Of a stretch of 64,000 nucleotides of DNA, positions 2,481-30,449 are shown in pieces. How positions within the stretch are numbered: position 1 is the stretch's first letter; each line of letters starts with the position of its first letter. The translations under genes and the position numbers were made by a program. Under the pieces are notes generated by a model, which saw nothing but the letters and a program-made list of their open reading frames with translations, was not told where the DNA came from and searched no databases. Origin of the DNA: an uncultured Bdellovibrionales bacterium (GTDB lineage Bacteria > Patescibacteriota > Minisyncoccia > Moranbacterales > UBA1568); NCBI GenBank assembly GCA_964612055.1, contig CAZTBI010000001.1:420824-484823 (forward strand). Direction: 5' to 3'.

Positions 2481-3383
2481 TTACTTCTTCTTGGCGCCGG
2501 TCGCGACAAAAGACGCGCCGATCTTCCAGCGGCCGCGTTCACGAAAAGCAGGAATAGTCTGCTTGCGAGCCGCATTGATGAGACCACTTAGGACAAGCTG
2601 GTGCTTCTTGGCATACTCTGACAACGTCACGATCTCCTCTCCTTTCAGGTAGGTGATACGCTTATGGAGAGACTCCATAAGAGCGAAGGCCACAATTTTT
2701 TCCATACGCTGCACCTGTTTGGTCGCATCGTACTCGCGAAAAGACTGATAATAGATACCTTTTTCCTTATCACGGATGATAACCACTGGGAAACCAAGTC
2801 GGAAAAGCTGGTAGTTCATGAGCGCCCGACCGATCCGACCATTGCCGTCACAGAACGGGTGAACACGCTCGAACTCGAGATGGAAACGGGCGATGACGTC
2901 AGTCACATAGCTCTCGTGATCACTTCCGTACTGTTCGATAGCGCGCTCCATCAAGGAAGCGACTTGCTCCGGTGCCGGTGCGATATGCTGCCCGACCCGG
3001 ACGAACTCACCCGGTGCTCGAAAACGTCCGGCAATCTTGTCATCGATATTACCGATCAACATCCTATGAAGAAGCAATACAAATTCTTCGGAGAGATCCG
3101 TGTTTCGCGCCTTAACCTTGATGTACTCCATCACTCGAGCCAGATTCTTGGCTTCGAAAACTTCTCGCAACTCAACCGTGCGCGATACCTCCATCTCAAA
3201 CAGGATCTTCTCCGTTTCTTTCAGCGTCAGAGTGGAGTTCTCAATGGCATTCGAGTTATAGACCCCTTCTGGAATTTCTACCTCATCGAGCACGTTCAAA
3301 AGCGCCTCTTTCCCCTTCTTGAGAGAGTCGAACTCCTTCTTGAGAGCCCTGATACGCTTTTTGTACACCGCGTTCAATGCCAT
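2481..3383 (-). CDS. fic: Fic family protein (Fido domain, AMPylation-type)
   Basis: Canonical Fic motif HPFCDGNGRIGR (HPFx[D/E]GNGRxxR) is present in the 300-aa ORF. Confidence 0.9.
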   Translation of the reverse strand: MALNAVYKKRIRALKKEFDSLKKGKEALLNVLDEVEIPEGVYNSNAIENSTLTLKETEKILFEMEVSRTVELREVFEAKNLARVMEYIKVKARNTDLSEEFVLLLHRMLIGNIDDKIAGRFRAPGEFVRVGQHIAPAPEQVASLMERAIEQYGSDHESYVTDVIARFHLEFERVHPFCDGNGRIGRALMNYQLFRLGFPVVIIRDKEKGIYYQSFREYDATKQVQRMEKIVAFALMESLHKRITYLKGEEIVTLSEYAKKHQLVLSGLINAARKQTIPAFRERGRWKIGASFVATGAKKK

Positions 3384-23681: not shown

Positions 23682-25370
23682 CTAATGATTCTGAGTAACT
23701 TCTTTCATCAGAAGCTCTTTCTTCTCTTTCGCTTGAGTAAAGTTCGGGTTGAGTTCAAGCGATTTATCAAGAGCTTCTAAAGCGTTCGCAGAATCATTTT
23801 GTTTTATATACACATTCGCCAGATTGTAATACAGAGAGAAGAGTGTAGGACTCAGTTCGATAGCCAGTTGGTACTCACGTTCTGCGGCAGTGAAATCCCC
23901 AGAAGACACATAGAGTGAACCAAGGTTATTATGAGTCTTGTAATTCGTGGGATCTAACTCTAGTACTTTTTGGTAGTTTTTTATGGCATTCGCAGTATCG
24001 CTTACTTCAGCGTATGACAGGGCTAAGTTGTAATAGAGATCCACTTCGTTTGGCGAAAGAGCGATAGATGCGTTATAGAGTGAGATGTTGTCTTTGAAAT
24101 CTTTGTTTCGATTGGTATCTATCTTCCAGGCAATACCAAGATAAAGAATGACGACTACGAACAGAACTACTTTCACGGAGAGGCGACCGAAAAATGCTTT
24201 ATATCGTTCCGTCAGGTGTTCCACACCATAAATCAGCGCAAGAATAAGGCCAGCGAGCGGTATAAAAATATATCGTTCATAGAGTACATTATTTCCCAGG
24301 CTACCAATAAAGATGATCGGTGGCGCAATAAGAAAAAGCCACCAGAGCAAGCCAACAAAAGGAGCAGCTTGTTTTTTACGAAAGAACACGAAGAGCATGA
24401 TAAAAAACATCAGAAGCACCAGTCCTGAGAGAATAATCTGAAAGGCTGGCAACTGATTGACATCAATAGAATGGAACAAGTTAAGCGGAAGCGGGAAAAG
24501 GAGCTTAAAGAGGTAAGCCCCGAAAAGCCACAAAGAAGTAAGGGTGTGAGTTGAAGCTGATAGATCTTCAGTAGTTCTGGCATAATCATTCGCAAAAAAT
24601 GTTCCGAGAACAGCATACCGAAAAGAGAAGTACACAAAAATTGGTACGGTGTAAAAAAGGACGAGTCGGTAATTCTTCACCAGAGACATAAAGACTACTT
24701 TCGGAAATCTTTTTTGGAAGAGTTCACAGCCAATAAAGATTGCTCCGAAAAAAACAGCTGTCTCCTTGGAAAACATCGCGAGCAACCAAAACAGTCCTGC
24801 TTTTATCAAAGCATTCTCTTTTTCTTCTTCGGAGTACCGGATATACCATTTGAGAGAAAGCAAAAGAAAGATCGCTACGAGTATATCCTGCACGGCTGCG
24901 ATCCAGTTAATGACTTCGGTATTAATTGGATGCGTCAGAAAAAAGAGTACTCCCAAAAAAGCGAGGATCCTGTTTTTAAGGAAGAATGTATAAAAACGAA
25001 GGAGAATCAAACAAAGGATGGAGATATAGGCAAGATTCAAGAAGTGAAAGATCCATGGTGAGGAAGATATCCGATATGCCACGAAATCCGAGAGAAGCTT
25101 CATCGGCCGGTAGTAGAAACCCTTTCCTTCACAACCGCCAAGCTGATACTCCCCCATACAGCCCGTAAATGTCTTGTACCAGTACTGTCCGCTGTGCACG
25201 TATTCATTCGTTACGATGGCCGCCCGGTCATCATGAACAAAACCATTCGCAAGAGTGCTTCCGAAGAATACTAAAAGCACTACCATCAGTATGATCTGCT
25301 GATTGAGTTCTACAGAGAAGAACTTTTCTAGTTTAGAGAAAAATGTCTTGAGATTTTCCATTCCTTTCAA
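23682..25370 (-). CDS. Multi-pass membrane protein with C-terminal TPR repeats (TMTC/PMT-like, DUF1736-type glycosyltransferase family 39-like)
   Basis: About 11 TM helices, then TPR repeats in the C-terminus (YYNLALSYAEVSDTANAIKNYQKVLELDPTN...). Architecture typical of TMTC-like proteins. Confidence 0.7.
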   Translation of the reverse strand: MKGMENLKTFFSKLEKFFSVELNQQIILMVVLLVFFGSTLANGFVHDDRAAIVTNEYVHSGQYWYKTFTGCMGEYQLGGCEGKGFYYRPMKLLSDFVAYRISSSPWIFHFLNLAYISILCLILLRFYTFFLKNRILAFLGVLFFLTHPINTEVINWIAAVQDILVAIFLLLSLKWYIRYSEEEKENALIKAGLFWLLAMFSKETAVFFGAIFIGCELFQKRFPKVVFMSLVKNYRLVLFYTVPIFVYFSFRYAVLGTFFANDYARTTEDLSASTHTLTSLWLFGAYLFKLLFPLPLNLFHSIDVNQLPAFQIILSGLVLLMFFIMLFVFFRKKQAAPFVGLLWWLFLIAPPIIFIGSLGNNVLYERYIFIPLAGLILALIYGVEHLTERYKAFFGRLSVKVVLFVVVILYLGIAWKIDTNRNKDFKDNISLYNASIALSPNEVDLYYNLALSYAEVSDTANAIKNYQKVLELDPTNYKTHNNLGSLYVSSGDFTAAEREYQLAIELSPTLFSLYYNLANVYIKQNDSANALEALDKSLELNPNFTQAKEKKELLMKEVTQNH

Positions 25371-25503
25371 AAACAGTGAACTTTAACTTACTTACAGCCA
25401 GAATAGCAGTTTCAGGAAATTTCATGAAATCCTGAACTTTTTCTTGTTCAGGTCCATTCACAACTCAAACAAAAAAGCATCTTTGATGGATACTTTTTTC
25501 TTA

Positions 25504-25520
25504 GCGGGGACGACCGGACT
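25504..25520 (-). repeat. Orphan direct copy of the 3' end of tRNA-Asp (GCGGGGACGACCGGACT), identical to 25601-25617
   Basis: 17/17 nt identity with the tRNA-Asp 3' terminus, located 80 nt downstream. Confidence 0.9.
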
Positions 25521-25600
25521 TACCCCTTCGGGGCATAAACTTCTCATCCGGACATTCCAGAAAACCAAAACCCGACCACAAGGGCCGGGTTCTTGATTTT
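25521..25600 (-). repeat. Conserved 80-nt tRNA-downstream element. Minus-strand order is terminator hairpin plus T-run, a variable segment, then GAGAAGTTTATGCCCCGAAGGGGTA. It is homologous to 26401-26478.
   Basis: Aligns with the element downstream of tRNA-Ala. Shared blocks include AACCCGGC..GGGTTTTG and GAGAAGTTTATGCCCCGRAGGGGTA. Confidence 0.8.
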
Positions 25601-25675
25601 GCGGGGACGACCGGACTCGAACCGGCGACCTACTGCGTGACAGGCAGTCGCTCTAACCAGCTGAGCTACGCCCCC
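25600..25675 (-). tRNA. tRNA-Asp (anticodon GTC)
   Basis: Revcomp folds as a cloverleaf GGGGGCG-TA-GCTC..GAGC-...CTGTCAC...-CCGGTTCGAGTCCGG-CGTCCCC-G, with anticodon loop CUGUCAC. CCA is not fully encoded. Confidence 0.9.
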
Positions 25676-25688
25676 ATTTTTTCTTTTG

Positions 25689-25762
25689 TAGCAGGGGCGA
25701 GACTCGAACTCGCGACCTCAGCGTTATGAGTGCTGCGTTCTAGCCAGCTGAACTACCCTGCC
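25689..25762 (-). tRNA. tRNA-Met (anticodon CAT), elongator-like
   Basis: Revcomp is GGCAGGGTAGTTCAGCTGGCTAGAACGCAGCACTCATAACGCTGAGGTCGCGAGTTCGAGTCTCGCCCCTGCTA, with anticodon loop CTCATAA. Confidence 0.85.
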
Positions 25763-25787
25763 ATATTTTCCGATTTGTTCTGCTTGT

Positions 25788-25859
25788 TGCGGGGGGTGGA
25801 TTCGAACCACCGACCTCTTGGTTATGAGCCAAGCGAGCTGCCAGACTGCTCTACCCCGC
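25788..25859 (-). tRNA. tRNA with CAT anticodon (Met or Ile2/lysidine type)
   Basis: Revcomp is GCGGGGTAGAGCAGTCTGGCAGCTCGCTTGGCTCATAACCAAGAGGTCGGTGGTTCGAATCCACCCCCCGCA, with anticodon stem CTTGG/CCAAG and loop CTCATAA. Confidence 0.85.
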
Positions 25860-26088
25860 TATAATTCTTCAATCGCTCTCTCCCTTGTCCAGATTTCCAA
25901 AATTTTTCTCTTTCTCTGGCATGAAGACTATCAGAACACTCCTCAAGTTTCAACACCTGCACTATCTTTTTTCCTTTTGTGGAAAATGTTTTTCCCTTCC
26001 TATGTTCATAGACTCTCTGTCGCAAGTCATGCGTCATACCGACATAGTATCGGCCGTTTTCAAATCGCAATGCATACACCGTATACAT
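25822..26088 (-). CDS. GIY-YIG nuclease family protein (YhbQ-like, 88 aa)
   Basis: MYTVYALRFENGRYYVGMTHDLRQRVYEHRKG matches the GIY...YIG...R..E pattern of the YhbQ/UPF0213 family (compare E. coli YhbQ [30 protein letters not shown]). Confidence 0.8.
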   Translation of the reverse strand: MYTVYALRFENGRYYVGMTHDLRQRVYEHRKGKTFSTKGKKIVQVLKLEECSDSLHAREREKFWKSGQGRERLKNYSGVEQSGSSLGS

Positions 26089-26094
26089 ATACTT

Positions 26095-26176
26095 TCTTGG
26101 TTATGAGCCAAGCGAGCCCTCCTACGGCGGGTAAACTGCCAGCTTGTCCGCCTGCGGCGGAACTGCTCTACCCCGC
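26095..26176 (-). other. Partial copy of the 5' portion of the CAT-anticodon tRNA (positions 1 to about 44, through the anticodon arm). Two roughly 20-nt insertions in the D-loop region include a conserved hairpin TCCGCCGCAGGCGGAC. It lies immediately upstream of the GIY-YIG gene.
   Basis: Revcomp is GCGGGGTAGAGCAGT[TCCGCCGCAGGCGGACAAGC]TGGCAG[TTTACCCGCCGTAGGAGGG]CTCGCTTGGCTCATAACCAAGA. Outside the brackets it is identical to the tRNA at 25788-25859. Confidence 0.8.
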
Positions 26177-26217
26177 TGTATGATGATTGTATCCCTTTTC
26201 TCTTGACACGCCAACTG

Positions 26218-26291
26218 TGGGTGATCCAAGATTCGAACTTGGGACCTCGACATTATCAGTGTCGCGCTCTAACCAACTGAGCTAATCACCC
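26218..26291 (-). tRNA. tRNA-Ile (anticodon GAT)
   Basis: Revcomp is GGGTGATTAGCTCAGTTGGTTAGAGCGCGACACTGATAATGTCGAGGTCCCAAGTTCGAATCTTGGATCACCCA, with anticodon loop CTGATAA. Confidence 0.9.
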
Positions 26292-26348
26292 GAATTTCTG
26301 ATAGCCAAAGAAAAAGCTTCGAAAAGACCTATTTTTCGAGCCTCGGCA

Positions 26349-26376
26349 GTATAGCTGAACTAAGAAAAAATTTCAA
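26349..26376 (-). promoter_or_regulatory. Sigma-70-like promoter for tRNA-Ile (minus strand: TTGAAA, 16-nt spacer, TATACT)
   Basis: -35 TTGAAA (revcomp of 26371-26376) and -10 TATACT (revcomp of 26349-26354), about 55 nt upstream of the tRNA-Ile 5' end. Confidence 0.5.
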
Positions 26377-26384
26377 GTCGGATG

Positions 26385-26400
26385 TGGACCGTACAGGACT
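26385..26400 (-). repeat. Orphan direct copy (third copy) of the tRNA-Ala 3' end (GTGGACCGTACAGGAC)
   Basis: 16-nt identity with 26661-26676 (tRNA-Ala 3' end) and 26481-26495. Confidence 0.9.
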
Positions 26401-26478
26401 TACCCCTCCGGGGCATAAACTTCTCGCCCAGTCGATCCAAAAATCAAAACCCCGCAACCAGTGCCGGGTTTTAACTTT
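26401..26478 (-). repeat. Conserved ~80-nt tRNA-downstream element (second copy; homolog of 25521-25600)
   Basis: Shared blocks TTACCCCTYCGGGGCATAAACTTCTC and CAAAACCC...GCCGGGTT with the Asp-locus element. Confidence 0.8.
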
Positions 26479-26495
26479 GGTGGACCGTACAGGAC
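26479..26495 (-). repeat. Orphan copy (second copy) of the tRNA-Ala 3' end, here carrying a full templated CCA (revcomp GTCCTGTACGGTCCACCA)
   Basis: The sequence ggtggaccgtacaggac includes CCA, whereas the resident tRNA-Ala gene encodes only ..CCACA. Confidence 0.85.
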
Positions 26496-26610
26496 GCGAA
26501 TACTCGACCTCCGGCCTGCGTTCTATGAGGCTTCCGCCCTCTAGCCCCGCAAGCGGGTCACCCCAAACGGGAAACTCCCGTTTCCCGACCCCTTCCCGTT
26601 CAAGCCCTGT
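26496..26610 (-). ncRNA. Structured G-rich segment (about 115 nt) ending in a tRNA-Ala-like 3' terminus. Candidate small RNA or element remnant with several hairpins, including AAACGGGAGUUUCCCGUUU and a GGAA-tetraloop stem.
   Basis: Multiple perfect hairpins. It is bounded upstream by the tRNA-Ala terminator and downstream by a CCA-bearing tRNA 3'-end copy. No family assigned. Confidence 0.3.
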
Positions 26611-26656
26611 ACAATAAAATATAAAATGCCCGTATCATACGACACGGGCATTTTAT
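26611..26656. terminator. Rho-independent terminator after tRNA-Ala (ATGCCCGT-loop-ACGGGCAT with flanking T/A runs; bidirectional)
   Basis: 8-bp perfect stem with T-runs on both strands. Confidence 0.7.
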
Positions 26657-26659
26657 AAT

Positions 26660-26734
26660 CTGTGGACCGTACAGGACTCGAACCTGCCACCCCCGCATTG
26701 CAAATGCGGTGCTCTACCAGATGAGCTAACGGCC
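26660..26734 (-). tRNA. tRNA-Ala (anticodon TGC)
   Basis: Revcomp is GGGCCGTTAGCTCATCTGGTAGAGCACCGCATTTGCAATGCGGGGGTGGCAGGTTCGAGTCCTGTACGGTCCA, with anticodon loop TTTGCAA. Confidence 0.9.
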
Positions 26735-26741
26735 CAATTTA

Positions 26742-26984
26742 CTACTTCGTTATTGTATCAAGAAGCTTTCTCCCTTGTCCTGACTTGAGAAACCTCTCTC
26801 TTTTCATAGCTTCCGTCTTTTCTTCGTACTGCTCAGTATAGAGTAGCACAAAGGGCTTATTTTGTTTTGTATATGTGTTCGATCCGGTATTATGTTCCCT
26901 TAGTCTAACAGCGGCATCTTTCCCGCTGTAGCCCACATAACGCTTACCATTTTTTTCACTTTTTAGTACATACACTGTGAACAT
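26742..26984 (-). CDS. GIY-YIG nuclease family protein (YhbQ-like, 80 aa)
   Basis: MFTVYVLKSEKNGKRYVGYSGKDAAVRLREHNTG carries GIY-YIG motifs. It ends 8 nt before the tRNA-Ala 5' end. Confidence 0.8.
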   Translation of the reverse strand: MFTVYVLKSEKNGKRYVGYSGKDAAVRLREHNTGSNTYTKQNKPFVLLYTEQYEEKTEAMKRERFLKSGQGRKLLDTITK

Positions 26985-26997
26985 AGTATATACGTTT

Positions 26998-27047
26998 TGA
27001 TGATGAGCTCCAGCCGGAGGCTGGTCCGCCTCTGGCGGAAACGGCCC
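26998..27047 (-). other. Partial copy of the tRNA-Ala 5' end (positions 1-16) split by a 30-nt insert containing the conserved hairpin TCCGCCAGAGGCGGAC, immediately upstream of the GIY-YIG gene
   Basis: Revcomp is GGGCCGTT[TCCGCCAGAGGCGGACCAGCCTCCGGCTGG]AGCTCATC. Outside the brackets it matches GGGCCGTTAGCTCATC of tRNA-Ala. Confidence 0.8.
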
Positions 27048-27112
27048 AAAATTGTTTCTTTCAAATGTGATAATTCTAGCCGAAAAAAGAAATTTTGTCT
27101 ACTATATGAGAT

Positions 27113-28216
27113 ATGTCAGAAAACAATCATAAATACGCTCACGCCTTTCTTGCCATTCCGAATATCGGAAGTGGCACATTACGAACCTTGGCGGCTCACT
27201 TCGGAAGCATGGAGAAAGCCTGGTTTGCTTCTCCAGAAGAGATCGCTGGCGTTCCAAAGATGCGCCCAGAAAAGAAAGAAGCGCTCATCATTGGACGGAA
27301 GAGCATCAACCCAGAGGAAACGTGGGAGAAATTTCTCACACAAGAAATCAAGCTCTTCCTTCCAGAAGATCCAGAATTTCCAGACCTCCTTCGAGAAATT
27401 CCCGATCCCCCCTACACGCTCTATATAGAAGGGAATTTTGATTGGGCGAAGCAGACGCCCATGGTCGCTATCGTTGGTTCGCGAAAATTTACCGCCTATG
27501 GAGAGCAGGTAGCGGCACGCCTAAGCGAAGATCTGACCCGTGCCGGAATAGTGGTCGTTTCAGGACTGGCTTTTGGAATTGATTCCGTTGCCCATGAGGC
27601 AGCGCTCGAAGCAAACGGCGAGACCATCGCCGTTCTCGGAAGCGGTATCCAAAGCATCTCTCCATCCAGTCACATCCCACTCGCCAAGAAAATTATGGGA
27701 CACGGCGCGGTGATCAGTGAGTATCCGCCGACTCTGGGAGGAGGGAAATGGACCTTTGCAGAACGCAATCGCATCATCGCTGGGATGACCCTTGGGACCA
27801 TCGTCATCGAAGCTGCCGAGAAAAGCGGTAGCCTCATCACAGCTCAGTGTGCCCTCGAATACAACCGCGAGGTTTTTGCTGTCCCTGGATCAGTCTTTTC
27901 TCCCTACTCCATCGGTACCAACAACTTGATCAAGCGAGGCGCTAAAGTCGTCACTGGGTTACAGGATATCTTAGAAGAACTCAGCCAAGAAAACCTTTTC
28001 TCCAGTCAAGAAAAAGGCCAGAAGAAAAAAGAGGTTACCGGCCTTTCACCTGAAGAACAAAAGGTTCTCTCTTTGCTTTCTCACGAACCACTTCACATTG
28101 ACAAGATCATCAAAGCGACTACACTGCAAACAGCCGCCGCCAGTTCTCTCTTGGCATTACTCGAAATCAAAGGCCTTGCCAAGAATGTCGGTGGCATGCA
28201 CTATGTAAGAACGTAG
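27113..28216 (+). CDS. dprA: DNA-processing protein A (DprA/Smf)
   Basis: DprA Rossmann-like domain motifs (IVGSRKFTAYGEQ..., GLAFGIDSVAHEAAL) and a C-terminal winged-helix-like tail. Confidence 0.9.
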   Translation: MSENNHKYAHAFLAIPNIGSGTLRTLAAHFGSMEKAWFASPEEIAGVPKMRPEKKEALIIGRKSINPEETWEKFLTQEIKLFLPEDPEFPDLLREIPDPPYTLYIEGNFDWAKQTPMVAIVGSRKFTAYGEQVAARLSEDLTRAGIVVVSGLAFGIDSVAHEAALEANGETIAVLGSGIQSISPSSHIPLAKKIMGHGAVISEYPPTLGGGKWTFAERNRIIAGMTLGTIVIEAAEKSGSLITAQCALEYNREVFAVPGSVFSPYSIGTNNLIKRGAKVVTGLQDILEELSQENLFSSQEKGQKKKEVTGLSPEEQKVLSLLSHEPLHIDKIIKATTLQTAAASSLLALLEIKGLAKNVGGMHYVRT

Positions 28217-28238
28217 TAGCATAAACTTTTTTCAAAAT

Positions 28239-30449
28239 ATGAAACTCCTCATCGTCGAATCACCATCAAAAGCCAAGACCATAGAAAAATATCTTGACGG
28301 CGAATACCGTGTCGTCGCCTCTGTTGGTCATGTGCGTGATCTGCCCAAGAGCAATAAAAAGGCTATCGATATCCCTGGTGGCTTCATCCCGCACTACGAA
28401 ATCTCTCCCGGTAAAGAGAAGATTGTCAGCGAACTGAAATCACTCGCCAAGAAATCAAGCGAAGTCTTACTCGCCACCGACCCCGACCGTGAGGGAGAAG
28501 CGATTGCTTGGCATGTCGCCGAGACCTGCGGACTAAAGAGGCCGCAGCGCGTTCTCTTTTACGAAATCACTCCTGATGCCGTCAAAGAAGCTATCAAACA
28601 TCCTCGCGCCCTCGATGAGAATCTGCGCCGCGCTCAAGAAGCACGCCGTGTTCTCGATCGCTTGGTAGGCTATGACCTCTCCGGACTGATCTGGAAAAAA
28701 GTTCGCTATGGCTTATCTGCTGGTCGCGTCCAATCCCCCGCCCTTCATATCTTGGTCGTGCGCGAAAAAGAAATCCGCGCCTTTGTTCCTGATCTCTACT
28801 TCCTCTTCACAGGACAATTCCTCTCGGCTGCCAAAAAGCCGCTCACTCTCACCTATACCAGCGAACCCCGTCCAAAAAGTGAGGAAGATGCTGTACGAAA
28901 AACGGCCGACGATATTGTACGCTTGGGAGAAAAGAGTCAGTGGACCATTCTCGATGTCAAAGAAACCCCGGCTCAAAAAAATCCCTACCCACCGTTTACG
29001 ACTTCCACCCTGCAACAAGCAGCCAGTTCCCGTCTCGGACTTTCGCCGAGCATGACTATGCGCCTGGCTCAGAAACTCTATGAGGCTGGCCATATCTCCT
29101 ACATGCGTACCGACAGCGTCAATTTGAACGAAGACGTGATTAAAAAAATCAGTGGGCTCGTGAAAAAAGAATATGGCGCTGAATATGCCGAAGAACGGCG
29201 TTACAAAACCAAGAGTAAGAATGCTCAAGAAGCTCATGAAGCAATCCGTCCGACACATCCGGAGATGAAGAATGCCGGCACGGGCGATGGGGAACGCAAA
29301 CTCTACAATCTGATTCGTACCCGCACCATCGCTTCCCAGATGGCTGCCGCCAAGATCCTCCGCACTAAGGTCATCGCCGAAGCCAGCGAAAAGGAAGTAC
29401 CAAATTTCTCAGCCACTGGTTCTGTCGTACTCTTCCCGGGATGGTATGCTTGTGACCAAGCTGCCCGCGGTGAAGACAGCGAATTTCCGAAAATTGCTGT
29501 CGGCGAAAAACTGAATCTCGAGACTCTGGTTTCGGAAGAGAAATGGACGACTCCGCCTAACCGCTATTCTGAGGCCGGACTCGTCAAGGAACTCGAAAAA
29601 CGCGGCATCGGTCGCCCGAGTACCTATGCGTCCATTATCAAAACCATTATCGATCGTGGCTATGTGATCAAAGATGGCAAAGCCCTCATGCCAACCGAAA
29701 CCGGTGAAGTGGTCGATGATTTTTTGGCCAAACATTTTTCTGAAATTGTTTCTGACGTCTTCACGGCCGAAATGGAAGGCAAGCTCGATGATATCGCAGA
29801 AGGAACACGCGAGTACGAAAAAACACTGAAAGAATTTTACACTCCGTTTACCAAAGAAGTGAAAAGTAAAGACAAGCTCGAAAAGATGACCAACCTCGGT
29901 GACGCCCCAGCCGACATTCTTTGTCCCAAGTGCCAGAGCGCCATGATTGTGAAGCTCGCCAAAAACGGCAAATTCCTCTCCTGCTCTCGTTTTCCAGAAT
30001 GCGATGGTGCCCGCACTATCGACGGCATAGAACTCGAAGGACCGAAAGAAACCGGTGAAGCCTGTCCCGAATGCAAAGACGGGAAACTGGTGGAACGCGA
30101 TGGTCGCTTCGGACGCTTCATTGCTTGCTCCAACTACCCGAAGTGTAAGCACATCAAAAACGATCCGACCCTCAACCCGACAACTGGCGTCAAATGTCCC
30201 CTCTGTAACGCTGGTGAGATGACGGAGCGTCGTGGCCGCTTTGGCATCTTCTACAGTTGCACCAACTACCCAAAGTGTAGAAATGCCATCAAAGCCAAAC
30301 CGACTGGCAATATCTGCCACTTTATCCGTGAGGATAAAGATGGAAAAGAATGTGGCGCCCTCATGATGGAGGGAACAAAAACTATTCCAGAACGCTGCTC
30401 GGACAAAACCTGTCCTAATCACAATCCTCACAAGCTTGAGAAGAAGTAA
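28239..30449 (+). CDS. topA: DNA topoisomerase I with C-terminal zinc-ribbon repeats
   Basis: TOPRIM N-terminus MKLLIVESPSKAKTIEKYL..., a catalytic Tyr region, and four C4 zinc fingers (CPKC...C..C motifs). Confidence 0.95.
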   Translation: MKLLIVESPSKAKTIEKYLDGEYRVVASVGHVRDLPKSNKKAIDIPGGFIPHYEISPGKEKIVSELKSLAKKSSEVLLATDPDREGEAIAWHVAETCGLKRPQRVLFYEITPDAVKEAIKHPRALDENLRRAQEARRVLDRLVGYDLSGLIWKKVRYGLSAGRVQSPALHILVVREKEIRAFVPDLYFLFTGQFLSAAKKPLTLTYTSEPRPKSEEDAVRKTADDIVRLGEKSQWTILDVKETPAQKNPYPPFTTSTLQQAASSRLGLSPSMTMRLAQKLYEAGHISYMRTDSVNLNEDVIKKISGLVKKEYGAEYAEERRYKTKSKNAQEAHEAIRPTHPEMKNAGTGDGERKLYNLIRTRTIASQMAAAKILRTKVIAEASEKEVPNFSATGSVVLFPGWYACDQAARGEDSEFPKIAVGEKLNLETLVSEEKWTTPPNRYSEAGLVKELEKRGIGRPSTYASIIKTIIDRGYVIKDGKALMPTETGEVVDDFLAKHFSEIVSDVFTAEMEGKLDDIAEGTREYEKTLKEFYTPFTKEVKSKDKLEKMTNLGDAPADILCPKCQSAMIVKLAKNGKFLSCSRFPECDGARTIDGIELEGPKETGEACPECKDGKLVERDGRFGRFIACSNYPKCKHIKNDPTLNPTTGVKCPLCNAGEMTERRGRFGIFYSCTNYPKCRNAIKAKPTGNICHFIREDKDGKECGALMMEGTKTIPERCSDKTCPNHNPHKLEKK

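What the first reader, a model, noticed from the sequence alone, without database searches (positions are those of the whole stretch)
25822..27047. GIY-YIG (YhbQ-like) cassettes sit immediately upstream of tRNA-Met and tRNA-Ala, each preceded by a partial copy of that tRNA's 5' end with a conserved hairpin insert
Two small GIY-YIG nuclease genes (25822-26088 and 26742-26984) each end about 10 nt before a complete tRNA gene on the same strand. On the far side of each ORF lies a fragment reproducing the 5' part of the very tRNA that follows. At Met it is GCGGGGTAGAGCAGT[TCCGCCGCAGGCGGACAAGC]TGGCAG[...]CTCGCTTGGCTCATAACCAAGA, which is tRNA positions 1 to about 44. At Ala it is GGGCCGTT[TCCGCCAGAGGCGGACCAGCC...]AGCTCATC, which is tRNA positions 1-16. 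Both fragments are interrupted at the D-arm by a near-identical hairpin, TCCGCC-NNN-GGCGGAC-(A/C)AGC. Both ORFs are preceded by ...GTATAT(ACT)ATG. The same modular layout at two different tRNAs argues for a mobile or selfish unit that targets the 5' region of tRNA genes and duplicates the target. It is not a group I intron, because the downstream tRNAs are intact. I am not aware of a described element with this architecture.
Basis: seen in the sequence. Interest (0 to 1): 0.8.

Follow-up and report, generated by a model that had tools for sequence, protein, structure and literature searches.

The report
tRNA-lodged GIY-YIG nuclease cassettes
Two tiny nuclease genes sit between tRNA promoters and their tRNA genes, each leaving a broken, hairpin-riddled copy of the tRNA's front end upstream; the layout recurs across ultra-small (CPR) bacteria and looks like a selfish gene that copies part of its target where an intron would splice itself out.

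Summary
It runs 39 nt into it and stops at the anticodon-loop TAA.

The layout is general. In 80 related loci (CPR, Omnitrophota, WOR-3, Elusimicrobiota) an 80-aa UPF0213/YhbQ-type GIY-YIG gene is almost always followed within about 0-30 nt by a same-strand tRNA of ten different amino-acid types. In 43 of 56 analysed cassettes the upstream region copies that tRNA from position 1.

The hairpin is not part of the cassette. It is a precise 30-nt palindrome of two 15-nt hairpins with no target duplication. It is dispersed in metagenomes, and 46 of 80 sampled copies lie in frame inside long ORFs, including housekeeping genes. It is still about 300-fold enriched next to these nuclease genes.

Best reading (about 0.5): a free-standing, homing-endonuclease-like gene that inserts into tRNA genes and restores them by duplicating the 5' part, transcribed from the tRNA promoter. 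For tRNA-Asn the junction is position 35/36, the known group I intron site.

The cassettes are old (syntenic with dprA, dN/dS about 0.1), show empty sites, and in one pair are 99% identical in unrelated flanks. Nuclease activity and target are untested. I found no prior description.

The parts
27073..27101 (-). sigma-70-like promoter (TAGACA-17-TAGAAT) upstream of the Ala pseudo-copy; probably the original tRNA-Ala promoter, now driving pseudo-copy + ORF + tRNA-Ala
   Evidence: 10 of 12 matches; hexamers conserved in orthologous loci L010-L012
27002..27047 (-). 5' pseudo-copy of tRNA-Ala: positions 1-8 (27040-27047), 30-nt palindromic unit (27010-27039), positions 9-16 (27002-27009)
   Evidence: unit folds as two 6-bp hairpins, -12.2 kcal/mol, z -3.9
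26742..26984 (-). 80-aa minimal GIY-YIG nuclease gene (UPF0213/YhbQ type), Ala cassette
   Evidence: Pfam E 1e-14; PDB relatives 1zg2 and 1ywl, E about 1e-9; dN/dS 0.08-0.11 against orthologs
26662..26735 (-). intact tRNA-Ala(UGC), starting 6 nt after the ORF stop codon
   Evidence: Rfam 64 bits
26620..26657 (-). intrinsic-terminator-like hairpin plus T-run closing the Ala transcription unit
26186..26214 (-). sigma-70-like promoter (TTGGCG-17-TACAAT) upstream of the Met pseudo-copy
   Evidence: 9 of 12 matches
26095..26177 (-). 5' pseudo-copy of tRNA-Met, positions 1-45, interrupted by two inserts of about 19-20 nt, each holding one hairpin (TCCGCC-GCA-GGCGGA at 26147-26161; decayed CCCGCC-GTA-GGAGGG further on)
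   Evidence: the second hairpin is perfect in orthologs L216 and L217
25822..26088 (-). 88-aa GIY-YIG nuclease gene, Met cassette; the last 39 nt overlap tRNA-Met and the stop is the TAA of the anticodon loop
   Evidence: 43% identical to the Ala-side protein; overlap conserved in L214-L217
25786..25860 (-). intact tRNA-Met(CAU) downstream of the Met cassette; the same gene has no cassette in L012 and L016

Best explanation
Each cassette is a free-standing, homing-endonuclease-like selfish gene lodged inside a tRNA transcription unit. A minimal GIY-YIG nuclease gene has been inserted into a tRNA gene. A self-splicing intron would remove itself from the RNA; this insertion carries or creates a second copy of the tRNA's 5' part instead. 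The result is: promoter, displaced 5' part (dead), ORF, complete tRNA (functional). The tRNA promoter transcribes the whole unit. RNase P cutting at the tRNA 5' end would separate the mRNA from the tRNA. Because both flanks of the ORF are tRNA sequence, the cassette would carry its own homology arms and could enter the same tRNA gene in another genome by break repair. Repeated cutting and repair would also give serial or tandem copies, as shown experimentally for phage SegB. The dead 5' copy is then colonised by a separate 30-nt palindromic mini-element that is mobile in these genomes; the live tRNA cannot tolerate such inserts. Shown here: the architecture and its generality, precise 30-nt inserts, empty and filled sites, long retention under purifying selection, and the promoter and terminator layout. 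Inferred: that the protein cuts tRNA-gene DNA, where it cuts, that break repair made the duplication, and RNase P processing.
For: Generality: 54 of 80 loci have a called same-strand tRNA within 250 nt of the ORF end. Most of the rest have a tRNA cut by the contig end or an intron-containing tRNA-Asn. Ten tRNA types are involved. Upstream copies start at tRNA position 1-3 in 43 of 56 cassettes (chance about 0.05 per locus), and no unit lies in any of the 56 intact tRNAs. For tRNA-Asn, about 20 of roughly 35 pseudo-copies diverge right after ...CTGT (position 35; my reading). That is the published group I intron site 35/36 (PMC13011429). Twelve cassettes precede a tRNA-Asn interrupted there, with the intron confirmed by Rfam in 4 of 6 tested. 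This is the arrangement called collaborative homing (PMC3984707). Mobility: empty tRNA-Met sites in L012 and L016; tRNA types interleaved in the protein tree; L055 and L059 share a 334-nt block at 99.1% identity, from the pseudo-copy through the ORF to tRNA position 35, with unrelated 2.9-kb upstream flanks. Serial cassettes occur in L027, L040, L056 and L081, and L055 has a decayed ORF tail. Old pieces with acceptor stems unlike the intact tRNA (L018, L019) fit co-conversion. Precedent: SegB, a GIY-YIG homing endonuclease in a tRNA cluster, recognises a conserved tRNA motif (PMC2330249). It also drives tandem [tRNA + truncated segB] repeats via microhomology between the tRNA 5' end and the segB 3' end (PMC13096335); compare the Met ORF fused into tRNA-Met. 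Catalytic residues Y5, Y16, G18, R27, H31 and E63 are invariant. Promoters lie just upstream of both pseudo-copies, and terminator-like hairpins follow tRNA-Ala and tRNA-Asp, the ends of the two units.
Against: No nuclease activity or target is known for this subfamily. At 80 aa the protein has no DNA-binding domain, unlike I-TevI or the Seg proteins, so site specificity is unexplained. The intact tRNA next to the gene should remain a target; this self-cleavage problem is solved only in the intron-containing Asn loci. The Ala cassette has stayed next to dprA across lineages with 48-63% DprA identity, with dN/dS about 0.1, and the nuclease is better conserved than DprA. That looks more like a retained, useful gene than a cycling homing gene. 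Junction positions are not fixed (about 16, 25, 35 or 45). Pieces broken by 30-nt units make poor homology arms. Evidence for recent transfer rests on one pair of co-assembled MAG contigs, which could be chimeric at a repeat. The cassette is nearly absent from viral contigs (4 loci), so no vector is evident.
Confidence: 0.5

Rival explanations
1. A REPIN/RAYT-like partnership. The minimal, Slx1-like, structure-specific GIY-YIG nuclease is the mostly vertically inherited enzyme that mobilises the 30-nt palindromes. The pseudo-tRNA next to the gene is simply where its products pile up in cis. tRNA adjacency serves expression.
For: 88 of 91 units in about 400 kb of GIY-YIG-selected loci lie within about 300 nt of the gene. 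That is roughly 300-fold enrichment, also relative to other intergenic DNA. RAYT genes are likewise flanked by their REPs (PMC3116915, PMC3337134). The units are mobile: L059 against L055, nested units, different sites in orthologous cassettes (L016 against the window). They insert precisely with no target duplication, after a T, in a fixed orientation, as hairpin-guided single-strand transposition does. Long vertical retention with dN/dS about 0.1 matches RAYT behaviour. Standalone prokaryotic GIY-YIG domains group with Slx1 structure-specific nucleases (PMC1564403).
Against: GIY-YIG enzymes are hydrolytic nucleases with no known strand-transfer chemistry. In the DNA-pattern sample only 4 of 80 units lie within about 150 nt of a family member; trans action would allow this, but it gives no support. 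This reading does not explain the tRNA 5' duplication, the 35/36 junction, or the tRNA-specific pieces. Genome-level co-occurrence could not be tested.
Confidence: 0.2
2. A domesticated host nuclease (DNA repair or RNA processing) that happens to be co-transcribed with tRNAs. The duplicated pieces are scars of a few ancient insertions inherited vertically, and nothing is mobile today.
For: Synteny with dprA across deep divergence and strong purifying selection. Large family: 4,110 clusters at 50% identity with E<=1e-10. Chromosomal, not viral. A GIY-YIG/TrmH fusion has been read as a hint of RNA metabolism for Slx1-like prokaryotic proteins (PMC1564403).
Against: Ten different tRNA types each carry their own matching 5' copy. 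tRNA types are interleaved in the tree. Empty sites exist, as do serial cassettes and a 99%-identical cassette in different flanks. The window holds two copies only 43% identical. A housekeeping gene would not repeatedly recreate target duplications.
Confidence: 0.15
3. A mobile [nuclease + complete tRNA] cargo module that lands inside the resident tRNA gene and replaces it. The upstream 5' piece and downstream 3' piece are the two halves of the destroyed resident gene.
For: About 17 loci have the hairpin-bearing 3' remainder downstream of the intact tRNA, for example L034, L036, L052, L082. Acceptor stems of old pieces differ from the intact tRNA in L018, L019, L075 and L084.
Against: Most loci, including the window's Met cassette, have no 3' piece. 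Up and down pieces often overlap (L028, L052), so this is not a simple split. The L055/L059 identity block ends at tRNA position 35, not at the tRNA 3' end. This largely merges with the best explanation if co-conversion is allowed.
Confidence: 0.1
4. Remnant of a group I intron with an intron-encoded endonuclease whose ribozyme has decayed.
For: Asn pseudo-copies end at the 35/36 intron site. Weak similarity to the group I intron endonuclease model TIGR01453 (E 0.007-0.011, far below cut-off).
Against: No ribozyme between the pieces: the ORF fills the interval and Rfam finds nothing in window 24000-29000. The downstream tRNA is complete. Non-Asn junctions are not at known intron sites. The published Patescibacteria tRNA-Asn intron endonucleases are HNH, not GIY-YIG (PMC13011429).
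Confidence: 0.04

Closest known systems
Phage T4/T6 SegB: free-standing GIY-YIG homing endonuclease in a tRNA gene cluster (PMC2330249, PMC13096335)
   Same: A GIY-YIG gene embedded among tRNA genes. Its target includes a conserved tRNA-gene motif. It spreads with neighbouring tRNA genes. It generates tandem [tRNA + nuclease gene] repeats whose junction fuses the nuclease 3' end to the tRNA 5' end.
   Different: SegB is phage-borne and has a DNA-binding region of its own, unlike the 80-aa chromosomal CPR proteins. No standing 5' pseudo-copy with palindromic inserts is described for SegB. SegB activity is demonstrated; here it is inferred.
[quoted passage not shown] F-CphI/psbA (PMC3984707, PMC6083498)
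   Same: [quoted passage not shown]
   Different: Most cassettes, including both in the window, have no intron. The gene is restored by duplication, not splicing.
tRNA-targeting integrative islands (recombinase-mediated, duplicating the tRNA 3' end)
   Same: The inserted element restores the tRNA by supplying a copy of the displaced part, and a partial tRNA copy marks the far end. The window and sister contigs L009 and L215 show such 3' events at tRNA-Asp.
   Different: Mirror image (5' part duplicated), about 300 nt instead of kilobases, no recombinase, variable junction.
REPIN/RAYT systems and Rickettsia palindromic elements (for the 30-nt unit)
   Same: Short palindromic doublets, dispersed and mobile, enriched around one associated gene (REPIN/RAYT). 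In-frame insertion into protein genes (RPE).
   Different: Only 30 nt long. The partner gene, if any, is GIY-YIG and not an HUH tyrosine transposase. Most sampled copies are intragenic, not extragenic.
UPF0213 proteins BH0048 (1zg2), EF2693 (1ywl) and E. coli YhbQ; prokaryotic Slx1-like standalone GIY-YIG domains
   Same: Same domain, size and motifs (E about 1e-9).
   Different: I found no tRNA linkage or function reported for those proteins in the searchable literature. The CPR clade has a distinctive FLKSGQGRK C-terminal motif.

Membership tests
GIY-YIG nuclease superfamily (PF01541) | Sequence match to the domain model above the curated cut-off | tested here: met
   45.5 and 54.6 bits against a cut-off of 22.6
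GIY-YIG nuclease superfamily (PF01541) | Catalytic residues: two motif Tyr, Arg, His, metal-binding Glu | tested here: met
   Y5, Y16, G18, R27, H31 and E63 are invariant in 38 sequences, including both window proteins
GIY-YIG nuclease superfamily (PF01541) | Nuclease activity | not testable with these tools
   needs biochemistry
UPF0213 / YhbQ-like standalone (Slx1-like) GIY-YIG | Single-domain protein of about 80-100 aa most similar to BH0048/EF2693 | tested here: met
   profile against PDB: 1zg2 E 1.4e-9, 1ywl E 2.3e-9; Slx1 and I-TevI only E 0.03-0.06
Free-standing homing endonuclease gene (intronless homing, SegB-like) | Gene lies next to or within its conserved target gene | tested here: met
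   a tRNA lies immediately downstream in about 75 of 80 loci
Free-standing homing endonuclease gene (intronless homing, SegB-like) | Presence/absence polymorphism at the same site in related genomes | tested here: met
   the tRNA-Met site is filled in the window, L009 and L214-L217, and empty in L012 and L016
Free-standing homing endonuclease gene (intronless homing, SegB-like) | Separate DNA-binding domain giving a long recognition site | tested here: not met
   80-88 aa, catalytic domain only
Free-standing homing endonuclease gene (intronless homing, SegB-like) | Cleaves the gene-less allele; own allele resistant | not testable with these tools
   only the intron-containing Asn loci offer an obvious resistance mechanism
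Free-standing homing endonuclease gene (intronless homing, SegB-like) | Transfer with co-conversion of flanks | tested here: inconclusive
   one 99.1% block bounded by tRNA sequence in unrelated flanks; old pieces with different acceptor stems
Group I intron with encoded endonuclease | Ribozyme core between the exon pieces; gene restored by splicing | tested here: not met
   no RF00028 hit in window 24000-29000 at E<=1; the downstream tRNAs are complete
REPIN/RAYT system | Dispersed palindromic doublets with copies flanking the associated gene | tested here: met
REPIN/RAYT system | Associated gene is an HUH (Y1) tyrosine transposase; repeats are extragenic | tested here: not met
   the gene is GIY-YIG; 46 of 80 sampled units lie in ORFs of at least 150 aa
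tRNA-targeting integrative island | Recombinase gene plus duplicated tRNA 3' end at the island border | tested here: not met
   no recombinase in the cassettes, and the 5' part is what is duplicated. The separate 3' duplications at Asp and Ala are not part of the cassette; a serine-recombinase island follows tRNA-Asp in L009 and L215

The most novel reading that the evidence does not exclude
The minimal GIY-YIG protein is the enzyme that moves the 30-nt palindromes. That would be a REPIN/RAYT-like system run by a GIY-YIG nuclease, whose 10-codon palindromes insert without target duplication into pseudo-tRNAs and, in frame, into essential genes such as gyrB, dnaE, uvrC and lysS of CPR bacteria. 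The tRNA-flanked gene would be the persistent source locus.
Probability: 0.17. Interest if true: 0.9.

Novelty: new variant of a known kind. Interest (0 to 1): 0.72.

Why it matters
If the main reading holds, it shows a third way for a selfish nuclease gene to live inside an essential gene. The known ways are to splice out as an intron or intein, or to sit beside the target. This one rebuilds the target by duplicating part of it, so that the target's own conserved sequence serves as portable homology arms.

It would also explain a very common gene in CPR genomes that is annotated only as 'GIY-YIG nuclease family protein'. It would account for tRNA pseudo-fragments and tRNA-locus assembly breaks in those genomes. 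It ties in with the recently reported 35/36 tRNA introns.

The 30-nt palindrome is a practical annotation issue, because gene callers read through it and produce false N-terminal extensions. It may also be a new class of very small mobile DNA that adds 10-residue linkers to essential proteins in the smallest bacterial genomes.

Tried and rejected
1. Group I intron or other known RNA in the window: Rfam at E<=1 finds only the five tRNAs and noise.
2. tmRNA or two-piece tmRNA for the Ala-like fragments: ARAGORN finds none.
3. Split, permuted or intron-like tRNA genes with the hairpin as a removable insert: excising every 30-nt unit in silico from the 80 genome loci and the window restores no additional tRNA, and an intact tRNA is always adjacent.
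4. Hairpin as a cassette-specific signal: rejected by the DNA-pattern scan.
5. Phage carriage: only 4 viral loci, 2 of them convincing.
6. Covariation statistics on the 91 units: not used as evidence, because my unit finder required perfect stems and so the result is circular. Only the orthologous L012-versus-window compensatory change is cited.
7. All-against-all search for further near-identical cassettes in different flanks: only L055/L059 found.
8. Proving the in-frame units are insertions relative to solved homologs: GyrB places the unit in an unaligned variable linker, and LysRS shows only a partial gap. This is suggestive but not strict proof.
9. A general GTATAT leader motif: does not recur in other loci.
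10. Structure prediction was not run, because sequence evidence for the fold was sufficient.
Full report
WHAT IS IN THE WINDOW

All features are on the minus strand. Reading 5' to 3' on that strand:
- a sigma-70-like promoter (27101-27073);
- a 46-nt copy of tRNA-Ala positions 1-16, split after position 8 by a 30-nt insert (27047-27002);
- an 80-aa GIY-YIG ORF (26984-26742);
- intact tRNA-Ala, starting 6 nt later (26735-26662);
- a terminator-like hairpin (26657-26620);
- two partial copies of the tRNA-Ala 3' end;
- tRNA-Ile;
- a second promoter-like site (26214-26186);
- an 83-nt copy of tRNA-Met positions 1-45 with two hairpin-bearing inserts (26177-26095);
- an 88-aa GIY-YIG ORF (26088-25822);
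- tRNA-Met (25860-25786), a second tRNA-Met, and tRNA-Asp;
- an ~80-nt element and a 17-nt copy of the tRNA-Asp 3' end.

Both ORFs pass the Pfam GIY-YIG cut-off and are 43% identical to each other. The exact hairpin occurs only twice in the 64 kb, both times in these fragments.

The Met ORF does not stop before the tRNA. It reads 39 nt into it and ends at the TAA of the anticodon loop. This is conserved in four other members of its subfamily.

IS IT GENERAL?

Homologs are standalone 80-90 aa proteins, mainly from Patescibacteria. The family has 4,110 clusters at 50% identity with E<=1e-10. Its closest solved relatives are the UPF0213 proteins BH0048 and EF2693.

I fetched 80 genome loci.
- In 54, ARAGORN calls a same-strand tRNA within 250 nt of the ORF end, usually within 0-30 nt and sometimes overlapping the stop codon. 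Ten tRNA types appear: Asn (the most common), Ala, Ile, Met, Phe, Thr, Val, Pro, Lys and Arg.
- Most of the other 26 also have a tRNA there. It is either cut by the contig end or is a tRNA-Asn interrupted after ...CTGT. Rfam confirms a group I intron in 4 of 6 such loci tested.
- In 43 of 56 cassettes (54 loci plus the window's two) the upstream region reproduces the downstream tRNA from position 1-3. No hairpin unit ever lies inside the intact tRNA.

THE HAIRPIN IS A SEPARATE ELEMENT

I aligned each pseudo-copy to its tRNA. The inserts are overwhelmingly exact 30-mers made of two 15-nt hairpins, placed with no gain or loss of tRNA bases. They sit after position 8, 12, 17, 28 or 31, almost always after a T. 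Some are nested one inside another.

The first loop is purine-rich and the second is its complement, so the 30-mer is a palindrome of palindromes. Its orientation relative to the tRNA strand is fixed in 90 of 91 copies. It folds as two hairpins (-12.2 kcal/mol, z -3.9). Removing the units in silico restores no tRNA, so these are not intron-like inserts in working genes.

Of the 80 loci returned:
- only 4 have a family member within about 150 nt, and few have any tRNA nearby;
- 46 units lie inside stop-free frames of at least 150 aa, most often read as SAKGGSASGG;
- the ORFs I extracted look, from their sequences, like DNA polymerase III alpha, UvrC, RNase R and other housekeeping enzymes. Only GyrB and LysRS were checked by search.

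Even so, in the GIY-YIG-selected loci 88 of 91 units lie within about 300 nt of the nuclease gene, roughly 300-fold enrichment. The units are demonstrably mobile:
- L059 has two extra inserts relative to the otherwise 99%-identical L055;
- orthologous Ala cassettes carry the unit at 8/9 (window, L010-L012) or at 17/18 (L016);
- L012 shows a compensatory stem change at the same site.

WHAT THE CASSETTE IS

Three observations bear on origin.

1. The junction. For tRNA-Asn, about 20 of roughly 35 pseudo-copies diverge immediately after CTGT, position 35 (my reading). This is the group I intron site reported for Patescibacteria tRNA-Asn (PMC13011429). Twelve cassettes sit beside a tRNA-Asn interrupted at that site. 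That is the published 'collaborative homing' arrangement (PMC3984707). In other tRNAs the junction is near position 16 or 25 (Ala) or at 45 (the window's Met).

2. Old pieces on both sides. About 17 loci carry the unit-bearing 3' remainder of the same tRNA downstream of the intact one, sometimes overlapping the upstream piece. Serial arrangements also occur: piece-ORF-piece-ORF-tRNA or piece-ORF-piece-tRNA. L055 has a decayed ORF tail in front of its piece. In L018, L019, L075 and L084 the old piece differs from the intact tRNA in its acceptor stem or anticodon, as expected if the nuclease gene arrives together with a foreign tRNA allele.

3. Dynamics. The tRNA-Met site is empty in L012 and L016. 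tRNA types are interleaved in the protein tree. L055 and L059 share a 334-nt block at 99.1% identity, running from the piece through the ORF to tRNA position 35, while their 2.9-kb upstream flanks are unrelated. This is a single pair from co-assembled MAGs, and no other such pair was found. Against this, the Ala cassette has remained beside dprA in five lineages with 48-63% DprA identity, and the nuclease itself is 68-80% identical with dN/dS of 0.08-0.11.

MECHANISM I COMMIT TO (ABOUT 0.5)

This is a free-standing, homing-endonuclease-like gene that occupies tRNA genes and compensates by duplicating the 5' part of its target rather than by splicing. The tRNA promoter drives the pseudo-copy, ORF and tRNA as one unit, and RNase P would release the tRNA.

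tRNA sequence on both sides would give the cassette portable homology arms. Repeated cutting and repair would explain the serial copies and the tight, sometimes fused, ORF-tRNA junction.

The experimental precedent is SegB. It is a GIY-YIG homing endonuclease in a phage tRNA cluster and recognises a conserved tRNA motif (PMC2330249). It drives tandem [tRNA + truncated segB] amplification through microhomology between the tRNA 5' end and the segB 3' end (PMC13096335).

The dead 5' copy is then colonised by the 30-nt palindromes, while the live tRNA is protected by selection.

Shown: anatomy, generality, precise inserts, polymorphism, purifying selection. Inferred: the cleavage target, the repair pathway, RNA processing.

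MAIN DIFFICULTIES

- The protein is only a catalytic domain, so the source of site specificity is unknown.
- The adjacent intact tRNA should remain cleavable.
- Long vertical retention with strong constraint is unlike a typical homing gene that decays after fixation.

These points keep three rivals alive:
- a REPIN/RAYT-like role, in which the Slx1-like nuclease mobilises the palindromes (0.2);
- a domesticated nuclease with old scars (0.15);
- a [nuclease + tRNA] cargo module (0.1), which merges with the main model if co-conversion occurs.

A decayed group I intron is essentially excluded for the window.

NOVELTY

Eight full-text searches found:
- SegB;
- collaborative homing;
- the Patescibacteria tRNA intron paper, which mentions neither GIY-YIG nor hairpins;
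- the 2006 GIY-YIG phylogenomics paper, which places standalone prokaryotic domains with Slx1.

None describes this cassette or the 30-nt element. The library lacks most subscription journals, so absence is not proof. I rate the finding a new variant of a known kind, namely free-standing homing endonuclease genes. There is a minority chance that the nuclease-palindrome link is something categorically new.

Noticed in passing
metagenome loci L094-L173 (e.g. L141 12026-12055, L094 1381-1410, L107 3490-3519): The 30-nt double-hairpin palindrome is a dispersed mini-element. 46 of 80 sampled copies lie in frame inside long ORFs, adding about 10 residues (SAKGGSASGG-like in either orientation). GyrB and LysRS were confirmed by search; others look like Pol III alpha, UvrC, RNase R, CCA-adding enzyme, MiaB and PGI from their sequences. 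Flanks are typically ...TT^unit^AA/GA.
   Followed up: partly
window 25504-25600 and 26384-26479 (minus strand): A conserved ~80-nt element follows tRNA-Asp and, further downstream, tRNA-Ala: a terminator-like hairpin plus GAGAAGTTTATGCCCCGRAGGGGTAA. Each is followed by a 17-nt copy of that tRNA's own 3' end. In the predicted folds, a variable 5' arm pairs with the copied tRNA 3' end in both versions, giving an acceptor/T-arm-like minihelix (z about -3.5). The conserved core was found only in the window and its sister contig.
   Followed up: partly
window 26480-26615 (minus strand); L011 3470-3646: A ~135-nt segment downstream of tRNA-Ala ends in a 21-nt copy of the tRNA-Ala T-loop and 3' end. 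Its ends pair (GTACAGG...CCTGTAC), it is about 90% conserved in L011, and it has no Rfam match.
   Followed up: no
L009 4340-5899; L215 2076-3312: A large serine recombinase gene lies downstream of tRNA-Asp in sister contig L009 and in L215. L009 is colinear with the window at 98.6% identity and diverges exactly at the tRNA-Asp 3' end. This looks like an integrative island at tRNA-Asp that the window lacks.
   Followed up: partly
L028, L039, L045, L052, L070, L082 (around 3230-3360 in each): The intact tRNA downstream of the ORF is bracketed by 7-12 nt of leader/trailer complementarity that would extend the acceptor stem, e.g. CTCCAGAgc-tRNA-TCTGGAG in L082.
   Followed up: no
window 26752-26781 and 25864-25891 (minus strand): Promoter-like hexamers lie inside the 3' ends of both GIY-YIG ORFs just upstream of the tRNAs. 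The -35-like element overlaps the codons of the conserved KSGQGR motif. This may be chance.
   Followed up: no
L075 ~2925, L059 ~2900, L049, L037; window 26118-26161: A second kind of insert occurs in pseudo-tRNAs: single hairpins of about 19-20 nt (e.g. CCTGCC-N8-GGCAGG). The window's Met copy has two single-hairpin inserts, not one 30-nt unit.
   Followed up: no
proteins P0085, P0102, P0087 and many entries: Database proteins of this family often carry 20-45 extra residues (e.g. ...FPPEADQPLAG...). These are translations of the palindromic unit and pseudo-tRNA, so they are likely gene-calling artefacts.
   Followed up: partly
L091 2930-3400: In a distant family member on a putative viral contig, the ORF is flanked by duplicated 3' parts of a tRNA, with a single hairpin in the downstream copy. 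This mirrors the usual layout.
   Followed up: no
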